This document shows, in pieces, positions 47,918 to 64,000 of a stretch of DNA of 64,000 bases. Position 1 is the stretch's first letter. Every line of letters starts with the position of its first letter. The notes under the pieces were generated by a model. That model ran no database searches and was not told where the DNA came from. It was given only the letters and a program-made list of their open reading frames with translations. Location of the stretch: positions 6,490 through 70,489 of the IMG/VR virus record IMGVR_UViG_3300045741_000352; one strand, written 5' to 3'. Made by a program: the position numbers and the translations under genes. Source of the stretch: a virus.

Positions 47918-48127
47918 TTAATCTTCGTGCTGATCTTTCTGTCCCTGCTCATATCCTCGCTCCCAACCTACTTCGTATGCCACTTGTAAATGATCGACCA
48001 TGCTTTCAAGTAGCTCACGATCCAAGCGACCTACACGAGAAAACAATTGACCGATCCACCGCTGAAAATGTCTCTCTTCTGTGCTGTCCATTAGCTGCAC
48101 CCCGCACTCATACCGCATGTATCGCAC
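47918..48127 (-). CDS. hypothetical protein
   Basis: Track ORF of 69 aa. It overlaps the 3' end of the RNR gene by 37 nt. Confidence 0.4.
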   Translation of the reverse strand: MRYMRYECGVQLMDSTEERHFQRWIGQLFSRVGRLDRELLESMVDHLQVAYEVGWERGYEQGQKDQHED

Positions 48128-50772
48128 ACGAAACAGTTACCAGTACGACGAAGCATTAAAACACCGCAGTCAGGGCACAGTGGTGCATCGTGTGATTGCA
48201 GTGCCGGACCAGCTTCATTGTCGTCCGTGCTCGGCTGCACTACATCGCCGTCAAATTGGATAGAAAGCCAGCGAAAAATATAGTCAATCACACTACTTGC
48301 CATAGGTAGCTTTGGATTACCTGTAAAACCTGATGGCTCAAACCGAGTGTGACGCAGCTTGTCAGTAAGCACAGACAGGGGGACGCCGTATTGAAGCAGC
48401 AGTGACGTGAGTACACCAACGGTGTCCATCAACCCCCGCACTGTGCTACCTTCTTTTGACATGGTGATGAACAGCTCGCCGGGCCTGTTTGTATCTGGGT
48501 ACATACCAACATTCAAATATCCCTCATGATTACCCACCTTAAATTTGTGGTTGTGTGCTGGACGATCCACAGGAAGTCGTACACGCGGAGGTTGTGCAGG
48601 TGTAATTTCTTCGATGTTAAACATAGCTTTTGCGAGATTTTCACTCGCTTCTTGGATAGGGTTCACTTTGGGTAAGTACCAGTTCGTATCTGGCTCCGCC
48701 CATCTGATTTTACCAGATTTCAATGTAGCGATATCCGAAAACTGTTCTGGTGGAATTTGTGCAATGGGTGCAGCAGATTGCTGCACAGTGACGGGTTGTA
48801 CGGTTTTACAACCATCACGATACACGGCCACAGACTTAAGCCCAAGCTGCCACGCTATAATGAACGCTTGTTCAATGTCTTCAACAGTGGACTCATTTGG
48901 CATGTTGATAGTCTTTGACACAGCGCCACTGAGTAAGGGTTGCACAATGGCTACCATCGCTATGTGATCACGCCAGGAGATTGTGTTGTCTCCAAGTGCT
49001 GTGGCAAACACCGCCATGTGCGTCGGGTCCAGTAAGCCACTCTCAACACTGTGCTGTAATGAGCCCGTGTTTTCAAGTTCAACCTGTATTTTGTTACGTG
49101 TGTGTTGATCGTAACCAAGTGCGGTGAGTCCGGCCATAAAAGACTTATTGATCATTTTGACAGAGCCGCCGCCTACAAGTTTTTTATCCTGAATAAGCCC
49201 CAGGCACGGCTCAATGCCGGTCGTTTCACAGTCCATCAGAAAACTGATCGTGCCCGTTGGCGCAAGCAGTGTGACCTGGCAGTTACGAAAACCGTGCTCT
49301 TTGCCCATCTGTAGGGCCTTGCGCCATATATCAGCCGCGTAAGGTCGTCCGTTTTTTTTGTGCTTTTCAATGACTGCCAACATTTCGTCACCGTTCTCAG
49401 GATAACCAGAGAAAGGCCCTTTCTTCTTTGCAATCTTAGCCGATTGTAGATATGCCTCACCTGTCATGAGTGAGGTAATGTCACACGCCGTCAAACGTCC
49501 AGCCGCGCTGCTATACGGCAAGCCTTTCGCCATGAGCAATGCGCCCAAATTTGCATAGCCTAGACCAAGAGAACGAAAGTCGTGCGAGTTCTTTGCAATG
49601 CTGTCCGTTGGGTAGCTCGAACGATCTACGATAATGTCCATCGCTGTAATGAGCACATCAACGGTGTGCTTAAATGCCTCTGCATCGAAACTGCCGTCCG
49701 GTCGTAAAAATGGTAAAAGGTTGATTGAGGCCAGATTGCAGGCTTCATCAGGTGGTCGCATAAATTCGGAACATGGATTTGTCGATACTATTCTTCCTTG
49801 TCCTGGTGTAGTGTGCCAACTATTGATTGTATCGACAAAAAATAACCCAGGATCACCACACATCCATGCGGCAGAGGCTATTTTATGCAACAAAAGACCT
49901 TTCTCACCGTGCGGTCTTGGCCAAGATGCAAGTTGCATGAAGTCATCGGTAACACTTACACTGTTGTTTGCATTTTGAAATGGGATGTACTCCTGTACTG
50001 CACTTTCCATGCTTCCATCATATCCCGCGTCAATTAACGCATGAGCCATTTCTTCCGCTCTGACTTTACACCAGATAAACTCTTCAATATCTGGGTGATC
50101 GTGGTCCATAATAACCATCTTCGCGGCACGTCGTGTTGTGCCGCCCGACTTGATGACACCCGCATTGGTGTCTGCACCGCGCATAAAAGATACCGGGCCG
50201 CTCGCTTTACCCCCACTTGTAATTGCCGCATTTTTTGGACGTAATTTTGAAATGTTGACACCAGCACCGGAACCATTCTTGAAAATCATCCCTTCGGTGC
50301 GGTACCACTCAAGAATGGACTCCATGTTATCTTCAACGTCCAAAATGAAACAAGCACTACATTGTGGTTCTGTTTGTACTCCTACGTTGAACCACACAGG
50401 CGAATTAAAAGCTGCGAGCTGGTGAAGTAAGATAAAGCACAACTCTTGATTGAAAATGATGGCATTCTTGTCGTCAAAATAACTATCAAGTAAACCCCAC
50501 GTCGCTATTGTATTAACTACACGTTGAATCATTTGCCGTACCGAGGTCTCTTGTACACCGTCCACCACACGAAAATACTTACTGGCAACGATGTTCGACG
50601 CTCGAACAGACCAGGAAATTGGGAACTCTGCGTCTCGCATTTCAAAAGCAATACTGCCGTCATCGCGTTCAATTTTGACGTGGCGTTTTTCCCAAATTAC
50701 TAAATCAAATGGGTTTACACTTTCTTTTGTGAAGTATCCTGGTATTTCTAGCAGCGACATCATGCACTCCAT
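48091..50772 (-). CDS. nrdJ: class II (adenosylcobalamin-dependent) ribonucleotide reductase
   Basis: 893 aa. It has the active-site STNPCSEF motif, conserved GGTTRRAAKMV and LLAPTGTIS blocks, and a C-terminal CPDCG..(10)..CFVCDTCG zinc ribbon typical of NrdJ. The start may instead be the ATG at 50763 or 50760. Confidence 0.9.
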   Translation of the reverse strand: MECMMSLLEIPGYFTKESVNPFDLVIWEKRHVKIERDDGSIAFEMRDAEFPISWSVRASNIVASKYFRVVDGVQETSVRQMIQRVVNTIATWGLLDSYFDDKNAIIFNQELCFILLHQLAAFNSPVWFNVGVQTEPQCSACFILDVEDNMESILEWYRTEGMIFKNGSGAGVNISKLRPKNAAITSGGKASGPVSFMRGADTNAGVIKSGGTTRRAAKMVIMDHDHPDIEEFIWCKVRAEEMAHALIDAGYDGSMESAVQEYIPFQNANNSVSVTDDFMQLASWPRPHGEKGLLLHKIASAAWMCGDPGLFFVDTINSWHTTPGQGRIVSTNPCSEFMRPPDEACNLASINLLPFLRPDGSFDAEAFKHTVDVLITAMDIIVDRSSYPTDSIAKNSHDFRSLGLGYANLGALLMAKGLPYSSAAGRLTACDITSLMTGEAYLQSAKIAKKKGPFSGYPENGDEMLAVIEKHKKNGRPYAADIWRKALQMGKEHGFRNCQVTLLAPTGTISFLMDCETTGIEPCLGLIQDKKLVGGGSVKMINKSFMAGLTALGYDQHTRNKIQVELENTGSLQHSVESGLLDPTHMAVFATALGDNTISWRDHIAMVAIVQPLLSGAVSKTINMPNESTVEDIEQAFIIAWQLGLKSVAVYRDGCKTVQPVTVQQSAAPIAQIPPEQFSDIATLKSGKIRWAEPDTNWYLPKVNPIQEASENLAKAMFNIEEITPAQPPRVRLPVDRPAHNHKFKVGNHEGYLNVGMYPDTNRPGELFITMSKEGSTVRGLMDTVGVLTSLLLQYGVPLSVLTDKLRHTRFEPSGFTGNPKLPMASSVIDYIFRWLSIQFDGDVVQPSTDDNEAGPALQSHDAPLCPDCGVLMLRRTGNCFVCDTCGMSAGCS

Positions 50773-59766: not shown

Positions 59767-61418
59767 CACCACCTCACAGCATTCTTACTCGCTGGTTGTG
59801 CAAGAATGAGGTTTTCTCGTGCTCGTGTGATACCGACATAAAACACACGCCGCATTTCTTCGGCAGCGTCAGCACTGGCGCGAGCGGCAGAGCCAGCTTC
59901 CAGTGAGAAATCAGGGAAAAGAACTACGGTATCAGCCTCAGCACCCTTCAAACTATGCACTGTGCCAACAATGACACTCGGACGTGTTTGCAAACTTTGC
60001 ACGCCGCGTCTGTGAATAACCTCGACAACGAAATCACGCAGCGTATCACTCCCTTTGACCGCATCAAGGTACCAGCGTAGATCTGGCTCAGGTGCGATGT
60101 GCTTCAGAGCATCAGGCACAAAACACGCTGCAATCAAATCGCTGATAGCTTCGTCACTTGCCCCGCTGTCCAGCTCTTTAATTTTGTTTTGCAGACCGCG
60201 TTGGAATATGCCAGTCACAGGAAGACCACCAGTCCACGCCTTGAAATCATCAGCCGTCCAGAAACGCGCATGCTCGCCCCATATGGCGACACTTGGCCTT
60301 GTGAACGCTAGCACACGATCTACAATGGTATTGCCCCGTCCACGCTTTTGCGGCAAAGGGTTCCACTTCCCGTTTGAAGGCCGTAACGGATTGTGAAATG
60401 GTATGCCCGCTTCTCGTAGGCACTTCAGTATGGGGTCAATCATGTAGCCGCAGGTCGCCACAAACATGATGCTCCTGTTGTTGTGTTGATGCTCGGTAAT
60501 CAGCTCCTCTATCGACTGCGGTGTAAAATTGTTGTACGTAGGCGCTCCTTCGTACAGCACACGACCGGGGACCACTTTGCCGTCTTCGTCGGTGCGTGGT
60601 TCAAAGGACACACGCATCATTTTCTTAAAACGCTTCTGCCACTCCTGGCAATAGTCATATACCGCACCAGGAAGTCTGTACGAGTGTTGAAGCGGTTTGC
60701 GTGTGCTGTCGTGTGTTTGCCAGAGATTTTGCAGCAGCATTGGATCAGTGCCGCGATAGCCAAAGAGGCTCTGCAAAAAGTCACCAGCAAGCACAAGGTG
60801 TTCTGCCTTGTGCGCCCATTTCTCAATAAGCTGCATCTCCAAAGAACCCACATCCTGCCATTCATCTCCGATAATTACCGAAGGTTCTCCAGGTGCCGTA
60901 TCCACTTCTTTAACGGCCTGTTCGAGCATATCAGTGAAATCGACATAGCCGCACTGCTTCTTCCAGTCTTCCCACCGTTTCGTAAACCCGGCTATATAGG
61001 TTGACTGCCAGAGTGGGGAGCTGCGTGGTAAGGCAATGGTTCGCAACCTGGCATATTCAAGTTTGATGGCATCCCCTTCTGTGCTACCTTCGGGCGCGGT
61101 GTAACCATCATCAGGATTTTTCGCCTGTCCCGAACCTGAGAGTTGATACGACGGGTACGCTTCGTTCCACTCTTTGAGCTTCGATTCAGCCACAATAGGC
61201 TGACCGAGAGCGCGATACGCAAAAGCATGCACTGTACCGAACTGTTGAAACGGTAACTCAATGTCACGTGCCGCTCGGTACGCTGCAGAGCGTGTGAGTG
61301 AGCACACGATGACGCGATCATGCCCGTACCGCTGTGCGGCACGTGTTGCCCACTCAGAGAGTGTGGTTGTCTTGCCTGTGCCAGGTGGTCCTATGATAAT
61401 TGATACTTTTGCTCCCAT
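59766..61418 (-). CDS. SF1 DNA helicase (UvrD/Rep-like)
   Basis: 550 aa. Walker A is GPPGTGKTT and the DExx-type motif is VIIGDEWQDV. The C-terminal motifs VGTVHSLKGAEADTVVL and FYVGITRARENL are present. Confidence 0.85.
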   Translation of the reverse strand: MGAKVSIIIGPPGTGKTTTLSEWATRAAQRYGHDRVIVCSLTRSAAYRAARDIELPFQQFGTVHAFAYRALGQPIVAESKLKEWNEAYPSYQLSGSGQAKNPDDGYTAPEGSTEGDAIKLEYARLRTIALPRSSPLWQSTYIAGFTKRWEDWKKQCGYVDFTDMLEQAVKEVDTAPGEPSVIIGDEWQDVGSLEMQLIEKWAHKAEHLVLAGDFLQSLFGYRGTDPMLLQNLWQTHDSTRKPLQHSYRLPGAVYDYCQEWQKRFKKMMRVSFEPRTDEDGKVVPGRVLYEGAPTYNNFTPQSIEELITEHQHNNRSIMFVATCGYMIDPILKCLREAGIPFHNPLRPSNGKWNPLPQKRGRGNTIVDRVLAFTRPSVAIWGEHARFWTADDFKAWTGGLPVTGIFQRGLQNKIKELDSGASDEAISDLIAACFVPDALKHIAPEPDLRWYLDAVKGSDTLRDFVVEVIHRRGVQSLQTRPSVIVGTVHSLKGAEADTVVLFPDFSLEAGSAARASADAAEEMRRVFYVGITRARENLILAQPASKNAVRW

Positions 61419-61423
61419 GTTTC

Positions 61424-61702
61424 TTATCCCAATGTGGCAATCACAATAGCAACTAACACGATTTCCATGTCTTCAGCATTCCTTGCAATCACAGGCGGTA
61501 CAATCTCTTTTACCCACTTATCATTGCGTAATTTGTACATCTGCGGACCTTTGAGCCACTTATTGAGCGCTGATGAAGCATCACAGTGGCGCTTGAATAA
61601 GCGTGGAATGCAATCTTTTTCAGGCACATCCCATGTATAGCCTTTCTTCTTACGACTCAAAGGAATGTAGTAGCCTGTGGATTTTTGACGTATAGCAAAC
61701 AT
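61424..61702 (-). CDS. hypothetical protein
   Basis: Track ORF of 92 aa. Confidence 0.45.
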   Translation of the reverse strand: MFAIRQKSTGYYIPLSRKKKGYTWDVPEKDCIPRLFKRHCDASSALNKWLKGPQMYKLRNDKWVKEIVPPVIARNAEDMEIVLVAIVIATLG

Positions 61703-61707
61703 AGGCG

Positions 61708-62082
61708 TTAGTCCGAAGAATCTATTGTCTGTTCATAGCCGCATCTTCTGCATGTATACACGTGTAGACATTTTCCCACATTGCGGGAATGTCGCATAGC
61801 ATGCACACACGTGACATTTGGCCCATTTGCGTCAACAAAACCCCAACCGTTGCACTGACCGCAAAATGCTTTAAAGTGACAATACTTATGCCTCACTTCC
61901 GCTGTGTCTTCCATACCACGAGGCACGCCGTGTGCATTTAACGTAAGGTTATGCCCACCGTACCCGTGACACTGCGGACAAAGTACATACGGCAGTTTGT
62001 AAAATTTTTCGTAGGTCTCTCTTTTGGAGTCAACAGATGGAAAATCAGTGAAAGCATCCGGGTCGCTCCATGTTATTGACAT
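61708..62082 (-). CDS. Cys-rich zinc-binding-type hypothetical protein
   Basis: ATG at 62082 after gagga, within track ORF 61708..62088. It has several CxxC pairs (CPQCHG, CGQCNG, CRRCG). Confidence 0.5.
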   Translation of the reverse strand: MSITWSDPDAFTDFPSVDSKRETYEKFYKLPYVLCPQCHGYGGHNLTLNAHGVPRGMEDTAEVRHKYCHFKAFCGQCNGWGFVDANGPNVTCVHAMRHSRNVGKCLHVYTCRRCGYEQTIDSSD

Positions 62083-62185
62083 TACCAATTATCCTCATGC
62101 ACATATTGATTGATACATAACCCATCCAGGTCTATTATCGCCCTGTGACGACCATAGACGTATCCCAACACAAAAGCACACGCAC

Positions 62186-62524
62186 TTACAATGAGATACC
62201 ACATTGTTCCTTCTCCTCAAGTACCGCATCCATTCCAATGCACGTCAAATACTCTGGCGAAAAACCTAGCTTGAGTTTCTGCAATAATCCGACTTTTTCG
62301 TAGACCTCCATATACGACTTCGTTATTTTTTCTTGACATTGCAGAGAACACGTAGGACTAAAATGCCCAGTTAGATGTGCTTTATTATTTTCACAGTGAA
62401 TCCGTTGTCCACAACCAGCACAATAGGCTGACACTTTAGTCGTAAATGTCCTATCTCTCATCGTATGCACACACTTCATCAATGATTGCTGTCGATGCGA
62501 TGTCCATTTCTCGCAGTGTGGCAA
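62186..62524 (-). CDS. Cys-rich hypothetical protein (start uncertain)
   Basis: Track ORF of 112 aa (CAGCGQRIHC ... CSLQC). Its 5' end overlaps the parB-like gene, and internal ATGs at 62479 and 62461 are possible starts. Confidence 0.4.
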   Translation of the reverse strand: MPHCEKWTSHRQQSLMKCVHTMRDRTFTTKVSAYCAGCGQRIHCENNKAHLTGHFSPTCSLQCQEKITKSYMEVYEKVGLLQKLKLGFSPEYLTCIGMDAVLEEKEQCGISL

Positions 62525-63248
62525 TTATCCATGGTAAACCGTGTCCTTTAACAAGCCGCACCAGTGTGTCTTCGTCACTTGACGCACCGCCCTGCATTAC
62601 AGCCAGCGTCTCTGGCCTGGGTGTTGTTTTCTTCTCGACACGCGCCTTGACTTTCTTTTCAAGTAATTCTTTTTGTGGTGTACTGGTACGGTTGGATTCT
62701 TGCACGACGCGCAAGCCGTCACTCACCGTAATTTGTTTTTCGGCAATTGCCTGATGTACTTCTGGTTCCGCTTCCAACATAGTTAAGCGTCCAGATACGT
62801 AGGAGATACTTTTGCCGATCTTCGCAGCAATACGCCGCAATTCCCAACCAAAACACTTGAGTCGGTTGAAAGCGTGTGCTTCTTCTATAGGATCAAGAGC
62901 CGCTGCGTTTATGTTAGAAGCCAGAGCACGCGCAAGTAACTCACCCTCATCCCGCGAGGTTTCAAGCACAGCGGGGATAGCAAGTATCTCTAATCCTTCA
63001 TCCATGAGTTCCAGTGTTGCCCGTAAGCGCCTCTCACCATCCACCAGATACAACTCTGTGTCTTTACGACTGAGTAACACAGGCTTGTGATTGTAAAATC
63101 CGTTGTCGCGTATAGACTCTTTCAGCTCCTCAACGTCAAAACGTGTGCGCGGGTTCCATCCGGGTCGCACAATGATTTTGCGGGGGTTTACCTTAAAGAG
63201 ATCTGTGGACCCCACATAGGCGTCTGTTTTCTTCATAGATGAAGACAT
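62451..63248 (-). CDS. parB: ParB N-terminal domain protein (ParB-like partition or nuclease family)
   Basis: 265 aa. It has IRDNGFYNHKPVLL and LVDGERRLRATLEL (the GERR.RA arginine patch). An HTH-like segment, RRIAAKIGKSISYVSGRL, follows. Confidence 0.8.
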   Translation of the reverse strand: MSSSMKKTDAYVGSTDLFKVNPRKIIVRPGWNPRTRFDVEELKESIRDNGFYNHKPVLLSRKDTELYLVDGERRLRATLELMDEGLEILAIPAVLETSRDEGELLARALASNINAAALDPIEEAHAFNRLKCFGWELRRIAAKIGKSISYVSGRLTMLEAEPEVHQAIAEKQITVSDGLRVVQESNRTSTPQKELLEKKVKARVEKKTTPRPETLAVMQGGASSDEDTLVRLVKGHGLPWIIATLREMDIASTAIIDEVCAYDER

Positions 63249-63257
63249 GGTGCGCTC

Positions 63258-63908
63258 CTAATTACCTACCCAATACTGTATATCAGGGTGCTGTGATCGC
63301 ATATCTGCAGAAATTTCATATAAAAAACCTTCCAACTTACTGCAATCACCTTCCAGGCCGGTGCAGTCACCTTCCAGGCCGGTGCAGTCACCTTCCAGGC
63401 CGGTGCAATCTCCCCACAACCTGCTGCAATTGCCCCGTAGGCCGGTGCAGTCACCTTCCAAATTAGCACAAGCACCACGCAACCCACTGCAATCACCCAC
63501 TAACTCGCTGCAATCCCCTACTAATTCGCTGCAATCACCACGCAACCCACTGCAATCACCCACTAACTCGCTGCAATTACCACGCAACCCACTGCAATCA
63601 CCCACTAACTCGCTGCAATCCCCTACTAACTCGCTGCAATCACCACGCAACCTGCTGCAATCGCCCCGCAAATAGGCGCAGTCACCACGCAAATTACTGC
63701 AATCGCCCCACAAATAGGTGCAGTTACCACGCAAATTACTGCAATCGCCCCTCAATAAACTATGTGGTCCTTCAATACGTGTATTCTGGCTTACATGAAA
63801 TAACGGTTCACTGATTGCACGTTTCAAAGGTTTTATGTCCACGACACACTCCCTCAACTGATCACGACGCACTTTTTTTGTTTTTGTGGATGTTTGCCCA
63901 CAATCCAA
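63258..63908 (-). CDS. heptad-repeat Cys-rich protein (20 x GDC(S/T)xLx)
   Basis: 216 aa. After a 49-aa basic N-terminus the sequence is an uninterrupted run: RGDCSNL RGNCTYL WGDCSNL RGDCAYL ... EGDCTGL EGDCSKL. No family recognised. Confidence 0.6.
   Translation of the reverse strand: MDCGQTSTKTKKVRRDQLRECVVDIKPLKRAISEPLFHVSQNTRIEGPHSLLRGDCSNLRGNCTYLWGDCSNLRGDCAYLRGDCSRLRGDCSELVGDCSELVGDCSGLRGNCSELVGDCSGLRGDCSELVGDCSELVGDCSGLRGACANLEGDCTGLRGNCSRLWGDCTGLEGDCTGLEGDCTGLEGDCSKLEGFLYEISADMRSQHPDIQYWVGN
63320..63765 (-). repeat. 21-bp tandem repeat array underlying the heptad protein
   Basis: There are about 20 diverged 21-bp units, including three identical consecutive copies (caccttccaggccggtgcagt) at about 63347-63409. 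Confidence 0.9.
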
Positions 63909-64000
63909 CGATGTTCACATCCAGGCTAAAACTTCGTCCACAGTCACTACACGTGACCACCTCATCAACGTAGACCTCAACAGCTATGTCTTTACTGCAC

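What the first reader, a model, noticed from the sequence alone, without database searches (positions are those of the whole stretch)
63258..63908. Protein built from 20 uninterrupted GDC(S/T)xLx heptads, with one cysteine every seven residues
Seen directly: after a 49-aa Lys/Arg-rich N-terminus the ORF is a perfect period-7 array. Gly, Asp/Asn, Cys and Leu are invariant and the other positions vary. It ends in a short non-repeat tail. The underlying 21-bp DNA units have diverged mostly where the peptide tolerates change. Three units are still identical, which implies ongoing expansion. The gene is the one immediately upstream of the parB-like gene in the replication block. Inference: a 7-residue repeat with conserved small, polar and hydrophobic positions suggests a solenoid with a ladder of about 20 cysteines, either metal-binding or disulfide-stacked. 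It is not the pentapeptide (A(D/N)LxX), hexapeptide or collagen repeat type, and I cannot place it in a known family.
Basis: partly seen in the sequence, partly recalled or inferred. Interest (0 to 1): 0.7.

Follow-up and report, generated by a model that had tools for sequence, protein, structure and literature searches.

The report
Phage cysteine-heptad repeat protein family
This is a real phage gene encoding 20 back-to-back seven-residue repeats (G-D-C-S-x-L-x). It belongs to a large, unnamed, almost virus-only protein family whose fold and function have never been studied, so it is new but still uncharacterised.

Summary
The minus-strand ORF contains 20 uninterrupted GDC(S/T)xLx heptads (63330-63749), with G, C and L invariant. 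The start is probably GTG 63842 (194 aa), not TTG 63908. The N- and C-terminal "tails" are conserved caps.

The gene belongs to a large unnamed family: 91 word-search hits, hundreds to thousands of profile hits, 44 IMG/VR stretches, but only 6 hits in 185,579 species genomes. It has no true Pfam, PHROG or NCBIfam family. The above-threshold Pfam MSG hit is a periodicity artefact, shown with synthetic controls.

Across the family the Cys position is C 67% / V 20%, and some members have no Cys. Cys is therefore mainly a compact core residue, not an obligatory metal or disulfide site.

Four lines of evidence favour a narrow beta-solenoid with two heptads per coil:
- turn-former composition;
- Pro-containing octad variants;
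- AF2 strand periodicity;
- a lag-2 (not lag-3) correlation at structural positions.

A trimeric coiled coil (a=Cys, d=Leu) remains a serious rival.

Function is inferred only. The gene is an acidic accessory gene of variable length. It often occurs as tandem paralogues, lies in DNA-metabolism modules, and sometimes sits beside pentapeptide-repeat genes. That suggests a binding scaffold or decoy against a host protein.

The parts
63258..63842 (-). Most likely CDS of the heptad-repeat protein (194 aa, GTG start, TAG stop at 63258-63260)
   Evidence: The ORF appears. Start choice: GAGGGAG lies 6 nt upstream of the GTG, and the upstream ORF stop is at 63862-63864. Homologue N-termini align here.
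63843..63908 (-). Probably not translated.
   Evidence: It overlaps the 3' end of the upstream ORF and has no Shine-Dalgarno sequence. It has no counterpart in homologues.
63849..63855 (-). Shine-Dalgarno-like GAGGGAG for the GTG 63842 start
63750..63842 (-). N-terminal cap (MDIKPLKRAISEPLFHVSQNTRIEGPHSLLR). It is a basic stretch followed by a predicted beta-hairpin, and the motif is conserved across the family (K-x-L-K-R ... L-[YF]-H-[YF] ... G-P ... G).
   Evidence: Alignments. AF2 pLDDT is 91 for residues 11-30 and 90-94 in P0023. Family listing.
63330..63749 (-). Array of 20 x 21 bp encoding 20 heptads of G-[D/N]-C-[S/T]-x-L-x
63469..63671 (.). 63-bp (three-heptad) higher-order DNA repeat inside the array (3.2 copies, 83% matches). 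Units 6-8 and 11-13 differ by 1 nt in 63, which indicates recent block duplication or gene conversion.
63261..63329 (-). C-terminal cap (GFLYEISADMRSQHPDIQYWVGN). It is of the 'IP...R..hP.l.dW[VI]' type shared with P0002, P0013, P0098, L008, L011, L018 and L038.
   Evidence: AF2 predicts short helices with pLDDT about 82.
63255..63259 (-). AGGAG Shine-Dalgarno sequence of the downstream ParB-like gene. It overlaps the TAG stop of the heptad gene, so the two genes are co-transcribed and probably translationally coupled.
   Evidence: Sequence read; ORFs.
62451..63248 (-). ParB-like protein (ParB N-terminal domain plus HTH). Neighbour only; not a conserved partner.
   Evidence: Pfam PF17762 at 8e-11 and PF02195 at 1e-6. 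PHROG 1033 at 3.8e-36. The nearest ParB relative lacks a heptad gene upstream.
63862..64000 (-). 3' end of an upstream ORF that runs off the window (...VVTCSDCGRSFSLDVNIVGLWANIHKNKKSAS*)

Best explanation
**Shown.**
- The ORF is a real gene of a novel tailed phage. It is co-transcribed with the DNA-metabolism block (ParB-like, helicase, PolA, class II RNR).
- It belongs to a large, unnamed, essentially virus-restricted protein family with a fixed architecture. That architecture is a basic N-terminal beta-hairpin cap, then 4 to about 35 heptads of G-[D/N]-[C/V]-[S/T]-[G/D/N/x]-[L/I]-x, then one of two short C-terminal caps.
- Array length changes quickly, and many phages carry tandem paralogues.

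**Inferred fold (about 0.55).** A narrow beta-solenoid or beta-roll with two heptads (14-15 residues) per coil.
- The strand is L-x-G-D-C. Leu, Gly and Cys/Val point inward, giving Leu and Cys ladders in the core.
- Asp and the variable position 7 lie on the flat faces.
- [S/T]-[G/N/D] forms the turn.
- Cys is a compact core residue interchangeable with Val, not primarily a ligand.

**Inferred function (about 0.3).** A cytoplasmic, early or middle-expressed accessory protein that acts as a rigid, acidic rod (about -15 net charge here) with variable faces. It would bind and block a host protein, most plausibly a DNA-handling or defence protein. The mode would be a decoy or DNA mimic, like that of pentapeptide-repeat proteins, which sit next to family members in some phages.
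For: **Gene and frame.**

**Family size and restriction.**
- 91 unnamed homologues, best E = 1e-42.
- The profile search gives 4969, 1704 and 156 representatives at E <= 1e-3, 1e-10 and 1e-30.
- 44 IMG/VR stretches against 6 in 185,579 species genomes, all MAGs.
- Only one GenBank phage record, the metagenome-assembled MW202691.
- Caps are conserved.

**Rapid array turnover.** Paralogues with 87-100% identical caps have 18 versus 15 units. L004 carries six paralogues with 13-32 units.

**Core role of Cys.** Position 3 is C 67%, V 20%, L/A/I 10%. Cys content is bimodal: 82 arrays have >= 0.9 Cys per heptad and 36 have < 0.1.

**Solenoid fold.**
- Position 1 is Gly in nearly every heptad of the alignments, position 2 is D/N in 86%, and position 5 is G/D/N in 74%. 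These are turn-formers.
- Recurrent octad variants G-x-h-x-P-x-L-x carry Pro (P0018, P0025, P0029, P0036, P0039).
- AF2 predicts no helix in the arrays. It places strands on L-x-G-D every 7 residues, with pLDDT 85-94 for the cap plus the first heptads of P0023. The bridge pattern in the window protein has a 14-residue period.
- Across 250 arrays there is a lag-2 correlation for Cys at position 3 (z = 4.8), 8-residue units (z = 3.7), Gly at position 5 (z = 4.6) and Asp at position 2 (z = 3.4). There is no lag-3 signal, and no signal at surface position 7. The last point argues against simple two-unit block duplication as the cause.
- A precedent exists: LpAFP has 7/8-residue NxVxG/NxVxxG units with 14-15 residues per turn (PMC5744647).

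**Function.**
- Repeat regions are net negative in 92% of members, with a median of -0.44 per heptad. The window protein has pI 4.45 and charge -15.
- Every identifiable direct neighbour is a DNA-metabolism gene: PolA-exo, Mu Gam-like (twice), Erf, an endonuclease, and ParB.
- Pentapeptide-repeat genes lie directly downstream in L043 and L050, and nearby in L012.
- A prophage-like context includes Lar and methylase genes.
Against: - AF2 confidence over most of the array is low: mean pLDDT 63 and 71, and 41-60 in mid-array. Foldseek finds no PDB or BFVD analogue.
- Sequence profiles match real trimeric coiled coils: 8qox_B at 4e-6 and gp26 (4lin) at 4e-4.
- G-[D/N]-V-[S/T]-x-L-x arrays occur in a YadA-type adhesin stalk and align to the P22 gp26 coiled coil.
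- The negative charge is modest for a DNA mimic, and position 7 is often Arg.
- There is no conserved partner gene, no PADLOC hit and no experimental data. Function rests on context only.
- The lag-2 statistics treat arrays as independent although many are related.
Confidence: 0.4

Rival explanations
1. Trimeric alpha-helical coiled-coil fibre. The heptad is read as a=Cys/Val, d=Leu, f=Gly, g=Asp. The N-terminal beta-hairpin acts as a foldon-like trimerisation unit and the C-cap closes the rod. Each 'a' layer would then hold three thiols, a possible tris-thiolate metal site in the Cys-type members.
For: - The C/V-to-L spacing is the 3-4 spacing of a coiled coil.
- The family profile hits solved trimeric coiled coils: 8qox_B at 4e-6, tail needle gp26 (4lin) at 4e-4, fibritin (1avy) at 0.29.
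- The adhesin array GDVTTLQ/GNVTTLQ lies in a YadA_stalk context. It aligns to the P22 gp26 coiled coil at 4.5e-13.
- The Lactobacillus phage Ldl1 adsorption protein carries GN[IV]SxLQ motifs.
- The C-to-V version of the window protein passes the gathering score of the LPP leucine-zipper family.
- Low AF2 confidence for a monomer is what an obligate oligomer might give.
Against: - There are two Gly per heptad. Position 5 is G/D/N in 74% and position 2 is D/N in 86%.
- Pro recurs at a fixed place in the octad variants.
- AF2 predicts beta bridges and not a single helix across the arrays, with pLDDT 85-94 next to the N-cap.
- A lag-2 (14-15 residue) super-period in structural positions has no coiled-coil rationale.
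- HMM hits to coiled-coil families follow from periodicity alone, as shown with synthetic sequences.
Confidence: 0.25
2. The cysteines are the functional element. Possibilities are a metallothionein-like metal or thiol sink, a redox buffer, or a disulfide-stapled solenoid (as in the Tenebrio antifreeze protein, which has a disulfide across each coil). This role is independent of which fold is correct.
For: - Cys is 20/20 in this protein.
- 82 of 207 family arrays have >= 0.9 Cys per heptad, and the distribution is bimodal rather than mixed.
- Neighbouring genes in some phages encode other extreme Cys repeats, such as CQDCQGCQDC....
- With two heptads per coil, two Cys would face each other across a narrow core (inference).
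Against: - Cys is replaced wholesale by Val, Ile, Leu or Ala in homologues with the same caps, for example P0055, P0069 and P0100.
- There are no CxxC or CxC chelating motifs.
- There is no signal peptide, so the protein is probably in the reducing cytoplasm, where disulfides are unlikely.
- No metal-handling or redox genes are consistently nearby.
Confidence: 0.1
3. The 21-bp tandem array acts mainly at the DNA level, as a centromere-like or iteron array for the adjacent ParB-like protein. On this view the ORF is incidental, or a different frame is translated.
For: Twenty direct 21-bp repeats lie immediately upstream of a parB-like gene. Partition sites are often tandem repeats (general knowledge).
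Against: - Units are only 67-77% alike at the DNA level, while G, C and L codons are conserved with synonymous variation.
- The claimed frame has the most synonymous differences and no stops.
- Hundreds of protein homologues have conserved non-repeat caps and different DNA.
- Most family members have no ParB neighbour, and the nearest ParB relative has no array.
- No ParA gene is seen in the window.
Confidence: 0.02
4. It is a member of an already described family: Pneumocystis major surface glycoprotein (Pfam PF02349), or a repeat-type RiPP precursor (NCBIfam RiPP_TigB).
For: - PF02349 scores 51.6 bits against a gathering score of 22.
- 19 of 50 family members hit PF02349.
- RiPP_TigB hits at E = 2e-4 to 1e-2.
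Against: - The MSG hit covers only profile positions 5-40 of 76.
- It disappears when Cys is changed to Val and falls below threshold when Leu is changed to Ala.
- A synthetic (GDCSGLR)x12 reproduces it at 33 bits, and an unrelated designed CxxLxxx coiled coil reproduces it at 43 bits.
- TigB scores are 14-21 bits against a cut-off of 70, and there is no radical-SAM neighbour.
Confidence: 0.01

Closest known systems
Pentapeptide repeat proteins (Pfam PF00805; Qnr/MfpA/AlbG type, right-handed quadrilateral beta-helix)
   Same: - Very short tandem repeats with flanking caps and an acidic rod.
- The first five residues of the heptad, G-[D/N]-[C/V]-[S/T]-G, follow the pentapeptide pattern [S/T/A/V]-[D/N]-[L/F]-[S/T/R]-[G/x].
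- Bona fide pentapeptide genes sit directly next to family members in L043 and L050, and nearby in L012.
- The proposed mode of action (DNA-mimicking decoy) is borrowed from this family.
   Different: - The period is 7 (or 8), not 5, with an extra conserved Leu-x.
- No PF00805 hit for any member.
- The super-period is two units (14-15 residues), not four units (20 residues).
- No structural match.
Lolium perenne antifreeze/ice-binding protein (LpAFP) beta-roll
   Same: It is built from 7- and 8-residue units (NxVxG / NxVxxG) with 14-15 residues per coil (PMC5744647). That is the same unit lengths and the same two-unit super-period inferred here.
   Different: - No detectable sequence or Foldseek similarity.
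- It is a secreted plant protein.
- Its core is formed by Asn and Val rows rather than Cys and Leu.
- Its function (ice binding) is unrelated.
Trimeric coiled-coil fibres with G-[D/N]-[V/I]-[S/T]-x-L-x heptads (P22 tail needle gp26, T4 fibritin, Ldl1 adsorption protein, YadA-type adhesin stalks, SlaB-like 8qox)
   Same: The heptad consensus and a/d spacing are the same, and profile hits reach 4e-6 to 4e-4.
   Different: - Those proteins are large virion or surface fibres with at most about one Gly per heptad.
- This family consists of small cytoplasmic-type proteins. They have two Gly per heptad, turn-formers at position 5, Pro-containing octads, dedicated caps, and no helix predicted.
Tenebrio molitor antifreeze protein (12-residue TCTxSxxCxxAx beta-helix; from general knowledge, not tested here)
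   Same: It has a regular Cys every 6 residues, two per coil, in the interior of a very narrow beta-helix. This is a precedent for Cys-filled solenoid cores.
   Different: - It is secreted and its coils are disulfide-bonded.
- It has a different period and motif.
- Here Cys is exchangeable with Val, and the protein lacks a signal peptide.
Pneumocystis major surface glycoprotein domain (Pfam PF02349)
   Same: A formal Pfam hit above the gathering score.
   Different: The hit is produced by any C-x2-L-x3 periodic sequence and is lost on Cys-to-Val substitution. It is not homology.

Membership tests
Pentapeptide repeat family (PF00805) | Tandem 5-residue units A(D/N)LXX recognised by the Pfam model | tested here: not met
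   The period is 7. There is no PF00805 hit for the window protein or for 50 homologues, whereas the neighbouring genes L043 7273-7683, L050 2745-3251 and L012 4351-4932 hit it at 5e-11 to 7e-41.
Pentapeptide repeat family (PF00805) | Four repeats per coil (a 20-residue quadrilateral beta-helix) | tested here: not met
   The super-period is two units (lag 2), with no lag-4 excess. The AF2 bridge pattern has a 14-residue period.
Hexapeptide / left-handed beta-helix (LbH) repeats | 6-residue units [LIV]-[GAED]-x2-[STAV]-x, three units per triangular coil | tested here: not met
   The period is 7. No Hexapep Pfam hit. No lag-3 signal (z between -2.2 and 0.4).
Alpha-helical trimeric coiled coil (phage fibre / YadA stalk type) | Heptad a/d hydrophobic pattern | tested here: met
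   Position 3 (C/V/I/L) and position 6 (L/I) are spaced 3-4. HMM hits to gp26, an SlaB-like protein and fibritin.
Alpha-helical trimeric coiled coil (phage fibre / YadA stalk type) | Continuous alpha-helix compatible with the sequence and predicted as such | tested here: inconclusive
   AF2 predicts no helix in the arrays, but confidence is low mid-array. Two Gly per heptad, G/D/N at 74% of position 5, and Pro in octad variants argue against a helix. No multimer prediction was possible.
Alpha-helical trimeric coiled coil (phage fibre / YadA stalk type) | Trimeric oligomeric state | not testable with these tools
   Needs SEC-MALS, AUC or a multimer prediction.
Pneumocystis MSG domain (PF02349) | Specific match to the full 76-position Cys-rich domain, dependent on more than periodicity | tested here: not met
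   Only profile positions 5-40 matched. Synthetic (GDCSGLR)x12 scores 33.4 bits and a designed CxxLxxx coil scores 43 bits. The Cys-to-Val variant gives no hit.
Metallothionein-like / Cys-ligand metal-binding repeats | Cys positions conserved as ligands across homologues | tested here: not met
   Position 3 is C 67%, V 20%, L 4%, A 3%, I 3%. There are Cys-free members with the same caps.
Metallothionein-like / Cys-ligand metal-binding repeats | Bound metal, or reactive or paired thiols | not testable with these tools
   Needs ICP-MS and thiol titration.
Two-heptad-per-coil beta-roll (LpAFP-like architecture; analogy, not homology) | 7/8-residue units with a 14-15-residue structural period | tested here: met
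   Units of 7 and 8 residues alternate in P0018-type and P0036-type members. Lag-2 z-scores are 3.4-4.8 at structural positions only. AF2 DSSP shows a 14-residue period. The LpAFP description comes from PMC5744647.
Two-heptad-per-coil beta-roll (LpAFP-like architecture; analogy, not homology) | Structural superposition on a solved beta-roll | tested here: not met
   Foldseek against PDB gives no hit with E <= 0.001 and best TM about 0.15. The models are low-confidence, so this is weak negative evidence.
Anti-defence DNA mimic (Ocr/ArdA/PRP-like mode of action) | Strongly acidic elongated surface | tested here: inconclusive
   Net charge is -15 and pI 4.45 here. 92% of family arrays are net negative, but only about -0.45 per heptad, and position 7 is often Arg.
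Anti-defence DNA mimic (Ocr/ArdA/PRP-like mode of action) | Binding or inhibition of a host DNA-binding enzyme | not testable with these tools
   Needs pull-downs or inhibition assays. There is no PADLOC hit.

The most novel reading that the evidence does not exclude
The family is a previously unrecognised class of protein solenoid, built from 7-residue units with two units per coil. Its core is a continuous double ladder of cysteines (or valines) and leucines. Uncultured phages use it, often in tandem multi-copy arrays of variable length, as a new type of anti-defence or host-takeover decoy, possibly a DNA mimic. In the Cys-type members the stacked thiols would add a chemical function, such as metal or redox capture.
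Probability: 0.2. Interest if true: 0.8.

Novelty: new variant of a known kind. Interest (0 to 1): 0.6.

Why it matters
The family has hundreds to thousands of sequence clusters in viral metagenomes. Yet it has no name, no curated model, no structure and no cultured-phage representative.

- **If the solenoid reading is right,** it adds a heptapeptide class to the short-period beta-solenoids (penta-, hexa-, nona-peptide). It would have an unusual Cys-filled core, which is of interest for repeat-protein structure and design.
- **If the coiled-coil reading is right,** it is a natural 'cysteine zipper' with up to about 35 tris-thiolate layers.

Either way, several features are those expected of phage-host conflict genes:
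- restriction to viruses;
- placement in early or DNA-metabolism modules;
- rapid change in array length;
- tandem paralogue clusters;
- adjacency to pentapeptide-repeat genes.

The family is therefore a concrete candidate set for anti-defence screening. A practical by-product is that the Pfam MSG model (PF02349) wrongly annotates these proteins above its gathering score.

Tried and rejected
1. **Pfam MSG membership.** Rejected by substitution and synthetic controls.
2. **PHROG 'minor head protein' 19577.** The hits are weak and restricted to the array (2.9e-6 to 8e-4), and most members give none. This is not a family assignment.
3. **NCBIfam RiPP_TigB.** It scores 14-21 bits against a cut-off of 70. 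Rejected.
4. **PADLOC.** No hit.
5. **Structure searches.**
   - PDB by sequence finds only periodicity-type hits to coiled coils.
   - Foldseek against PDB (both models) and against BFVD (P0023 model) finds nothing at E <= 0.001.
6. **Literature.** Searches for the motif strings and for heptapeptide or solenoid phage repeats found nothing relevant.
7. **Looking for the source phage or close relatives.**
   - megablast against GenBank phages gave no match.
   - An exact-protein look-up of both start variants is not on record.
   - A ParB-based scan of IMG/VR found nothing.
   - The metagenome scan found a 44%-identical ParB without the heptad gene. No repeat-number polymorphism could therefore be measured for this particular gene.
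8. **The search for related loci with the family alignment.** It failed because no conserved 7-10-column block exists. It was replaced by a degenerate DNA pattern.
9. **Conserved neighbour search.** All-against-all clustering of flanking ORFs found no universal partner.
10. **Three-sided (21 residues per coil) beta-helix.** This was suggested by the 63-bp DNA period. It was rejected because there is no lag-3 signal.
11. **DNA-level iteron or centromere reading.** Rejected.
Full report
**1. The observation**

The minus-strand ORF 63258..63908 translates to 216 aa. A script that cuts it into heptads finds exactly 20 consecutive units, at aa 54-193 (DNA 63330..63749).
- G, C and L are 20/20.
- Position 2 is D16/N3/A1.
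- Position 4 is S13/T5/A2.
- Positions 5 and 7 are variable.

Tandem Repeats Finder reports the 21-bp array and a 63-bp higher-order period at 63469-63671. Three 21-bp units are identical (units 8, 10, 13), and three further pairs are identical. Units 6-8 and 11-13 differ by one base in 63, so recent block duplication or gene conversion is real.

*Coding frame.* The claimed frame has no stops and the largest share of synonymous differences between units (0.38 against the consensus, 0.45 pairwise). The antisense Pro/Ser-rich frame has 0.31-0.35 and two stops. The remaining frames have 0.07-0.19.

*Start codon.*
- An ORF in another frame runs in from beyond the window and stops at 63862-63864.
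- GAGGGAG lies at 63849-63855, six bases before GTG 63842.
- The TTG 63908 and GTG 63872 starts have no such signal.
- Homologues begin at the equivalent position with MKPLKR....

The protein is therefore most likely 194 aa.

*Link to parB.* The TAG stop overlaps an AGGAG that serves the ATG of the ParB-like gene at 63248. The two genes are co-transcribed and probably coupled.

**2. Setting**

The window is a tailed-phage genome with no close relative in GenBank phages.
- The plus strand carries the large terminase, a portal-like protein and an internal virion protein.
- The minus strand carries a class II ribonucleotide reductase, a family A DNA polymerase, a helicase, the ParB-like protein and the heptad gene.

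**3. It is a member of a large, unnamed, virus-restricted family**

*Size.*
- A word-indexed search found 91 homologues (best E = 1e-42, 44-62% identity). None has a name other than 'hypothetical protein'.
- A profile of 50 members, searched against 1.84 billion representatives, found 4969 at E <= 1e-3, 1704 at E <= 1e-10 and 156 at E <= 1e-30. The weak tail includes genuine coiled-coil proteins such as a YadA-type adhesin, so these counts are upper bounds.

*Architecture.* It is constant across members:
- a basic N-terminus followed by L-[YF]-H-[YF]..(D/N)G..[IV].GP...[LM].G;
- then 4 to about 35 heptads;
- then one of two C-terminal caps.

The first cap type is G[DN]LD.C[ED][IL]T.E[ED]R..G[IV].I..L[IV]. 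The second is G[DN]L..IP...R..hP.l.dW[VI], and the window protein has this second type.

*Distribution.* A degenerate DNA pattern for four Cys-type heptads hits 44 stretches in IMG/VR. It hits only 6 in one genome for each of 185,579 species, all of them MAG contigs from unrelated phyla. Among 50,697 GenBank phage records, only one carries a member: the metagenome-assembled podovirus MW202691 from a spring.

**4. No curated family covers it**

- Pfam gives PF02349 (Pneumocystis major surface glycoprotein) at 51.6 bits against a gathering score of 22. 19 of 50 homologues also hit it.
- Controls show this is a periodicity artefact:
  - Changing every Cys of the window protein to Val removes the hit and replaces it with coiled-coil families.
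  - Changing Leu to Ala drops it to 18 bits.
  - A synthetic (GDCSGLR)x12 scores 33 bits.
  - An unrelated designed CxxLxxx coiled coil scores 43 bits.
- PHROGs gives only weak, array-limited matches to phrog_19577, and none for most members.
- NCBIfam gives RiPP_TigB at 14-21 bits against a cut-off of 70.
- PADLOC gives nothing.
- Full-text searches for the motif strings and for heptapeptide or solenoid phage repeats found nothing relevant.

**5. What the cysteines are**

Over 207 arrays the heptad consensus is:
- position 1: G, fixed by the parsing pattern used; the Gly columns are invariant or nearly so in the alignments;
- position 2: D63/N23;
- position 3: C67/V20/L4/A3/I3;
- position 4: S56/T36;
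- position 5: G56/D10/N8;
- position 6: L79/I16;
- position 7: R31/S16/W10 and others.

Cys content is bimodal: 82 arrays have at least 0.9 Cys per heptad and 36 have fewer than 0.1. Cys-free proteins (P0055, P0069, P0100) have the same caps. Cys therefore occupies a buried, small-hydrophobic position. Metal binding or disulfide stacking is not a defining property of the family. It remains possible for the Cys-type subgroup.

**6. Fold**

Two readings compete.

*For a coiled coil.*
- Positions 3 and 6 have the a/d spacing.
- The family profile hits solved trimeric coiled coils: 8qox_B at 4e-6, tail needle gp26 (4lin) at 4e-4, fibritin at 0.29.
- GDVTTLQ/GNVTTLQ arrays occur in an adhesin stalk and align to P22 gp26 at 4.5e-13.
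- The Ldl1 adsorption protein has GN[IV]SxLQ motifs.
- However, one search shows that such hits follow from periodicity alone.

*For a beta-solenoid.*
- Three of the seven positions are dominated by turn-formers: position 1 G, position 2 D/N at 86%, position 5 G/D/N at 74%.
- Many members contain 8-residue variants G-x-h-x-P-x-L-x, with Pro at a fixed place. Examples are GELRPDLR, GRVSPFLK, GHIHPHLK, GVISPYLL and GDIHPQLC. These cannot sit in a continuous helix.
- Dedicated N- and C-terminal caps are typical of solenoids.
- AF2 predicts no helix in either array.
  - For P0023 the N-cap hairpin and the first four heptads have pLDDT 85-94, with strands on L-x-G-D every seven residues.
  - For the window protein the isolated-bridge pattern repeats every 14 residues.
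  - Mid-array confidence is low (41-67).
  - Foldseek finds nothing in PDB (both models) or BFVD (P0023 model). The models themselves cannot be trusted in detail.

*Sequence-only test for the number of units per coil* (250 non-identical arrays, 2799 units; within-array shuffles as the null).
- Lag 2 is enriched for four structural features: Cys at position 3 (z = 4.8), 8-residue units (z = 3.7), Gly at position 5 (z = 4.6) and Asp at position 2 (z = 3.4).
- Lag 3 is not enriched (z between -2.2 and 0.4).
- Surface position 7 shows no periodicity at any lag, which argues against simple two-unit DNA block duplication as the cause.

Two heptads (14-15 residues) per coil is the architecture of the ryegrass antifreeze protein LpAFP, which is also built from 7- and 8-residue units (PMC5744647). 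No sequence or structural similarity to it was detected.

I put the two-heptad-per-coil solenoid at about 0.55, the trimeric coiled coil at about 0.25-0.3, and other folds at the remainder. In the solenoid reading the strand L-x-G-D-C places Leu, Gly and Cys inward and Asp and position 7 outward. This last step is inference.

**7. Function (inferred)**

*Context of the gene.*
- Every identifiable direct neighbour of family members is a DNA-metabolism gene. These are a PolA exonuclease domain next to a DUF5906 primase-like protein and a UvrD-like helicase (L002), Mu Gam-like proteins (L013, L015), Erf (L045), an endonuclease (L049), and ParB here.
- Other contexts are prophage early regions with a CI-like repressor, Lar and a methylase, and runs of small unknown genes in very large viral contigs.
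- No partner gene is conserved.
- The nearest ParB relative (44% identity) has no heptad gene upstream, so the ParB link is circumstantial.

*Paralogues and array turnover.*
- Many phages carry tandem paralogues: six in 12.8 kb of L004, three each in L018 and L051, and at least four in one contig (L029/L039).
- Paralogues with 87-100% identical caps differ in array length, 18 versus 15 units.

*Neighbouring repeat genes.* Pentapeptide-repeat genes (PF00805, 5e-11 to 7e-41) lie directly downstream in L043 and L050, and nearby in L012.

*Charge.* Arrays are net negative in 92% of members, with a median of -0.44 per heptad. The window protein has pI 4.45 and net charge -15, concentrated in the E-rich last seven heptads.

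Together these features are what one expects of a conflict or host-takeover accessory gene. My best guess (about 0.3) is a rigid acidic rod with variable faces that binds and blocks a host DNA-handling or defence protein. This is the mode of action proposed for pentapeptide-repeat DNA mimics. Nothing here tests binding.

**8. Verdict**

- The 'cysteine ladder for metal or disulfide' part is not supported as a family property.
- The parB association is incidental.
- The finding is a real, widespread and undescribed repeat family of uncultured phages. I class it as a new variant within the known kind 'short-period tandem-repeat rods', with unknown function. Interest 0.6.

Noticed in passing
L012 1483-2349(-), L014 9947-10309(+), L024 5214-5816(+): A second extreme Cys repeat family with a 3-residue period (CQDCQGCQDC..., CTNCTNCTDCKDC..., CMNCTDCMNCGYC...). 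It lies directly adjacent to heptad-family genes in L012 and L014. The L012 copy has no Pfam hit; the L014 and L024 copies were not scanned.
   Followed up: partly
L043 7273-7683(+), L050 2745-3251(+), L012 4351-4932(-): Bona fide pentapeptide-repeat proteins (PF00805) sit immediately downstream of heptad-family genes in two unrelated viral contigs, and a few genes away in a third.
   Followed up: partly
P0097 (1540 aa), P0099 (1203 aa); also P0092 (1305 aa), P0104 (3829 aa): Giant proteins carry the family's N-cap plus heptads at the N-terminus and heptads plus the 'IP..RR' C-cap at the extreme C-terminus. These are separated by about 1000-1300 aa of Ala/Ser/Thr-rich sequence, as if a solenoid were split by a huge insertion. 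P0092 has two long GNVSxIx arrays.
   Followed up: partly
P0094 (1157 aa): A YadA-type trimeric autotransporter adhesin has perfect GDVTTLQ/GNVTTLQ heptad arrays right after each 'AVNGSQLYATN' neck. This is the same consensus as the Val-type phage family. Whether these stalk segments are helical or share the phage fold is open.
   Followed up: partly
window 61708-62088(-): A 126-aa ORF between the helicase and the ParB-like gene has two CxxCxGxG motifs (CPQCHGYGG, CGQCNGWG) reminiscent of the DnaJ zinc-finger domain, plus further Cys pairs. It has no Pfam, PHROG or PADLOC hit.
   Followed up: partly
window 62451-63248(-): The ParB-like protein (ParB N-terminal domain plus HTH) appears to be an orphan. 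No ParA-type ATPase gene is apparent among the larger ORFs listed for the window (most were not scanned). Its closest relative in metagenomes sits next to a divergent DNA methyltransferase-like gene.
   Followed up: partly
P0007, P0024: Some family members carry a C-terminal hydrophobic segment (…MENMVLLSVAICGVITAVIVIMIIVDVIKMG…) after the array and cap. This suggests membrane-anchored versions.
   Followed up: no
Pfam PF02349 (MSG): This Pfam model scores any C-x2-L-x3 periodic sequence above its gathering threshold, including synthetic ones. It therefore mis-annotates these phage proteins in precomputed tables.
   Followed up: yes
window 48091-50772(-) and the whole window: The phage has no megablast match in GenBank phages over window 61000-64000. 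It encodes a class II (B12-dependent) ribonucleotide reductase whose best match, at 39% identity, is in a 485-kb uncultured phage.
   Followed up: no
L004 (contig QMCE01000841.1, 178 kb): Six heptad-family paralogues lie within 12.8 kb, interspersed with IS605-type TnpA/TnpB genes.
   Followed up: no
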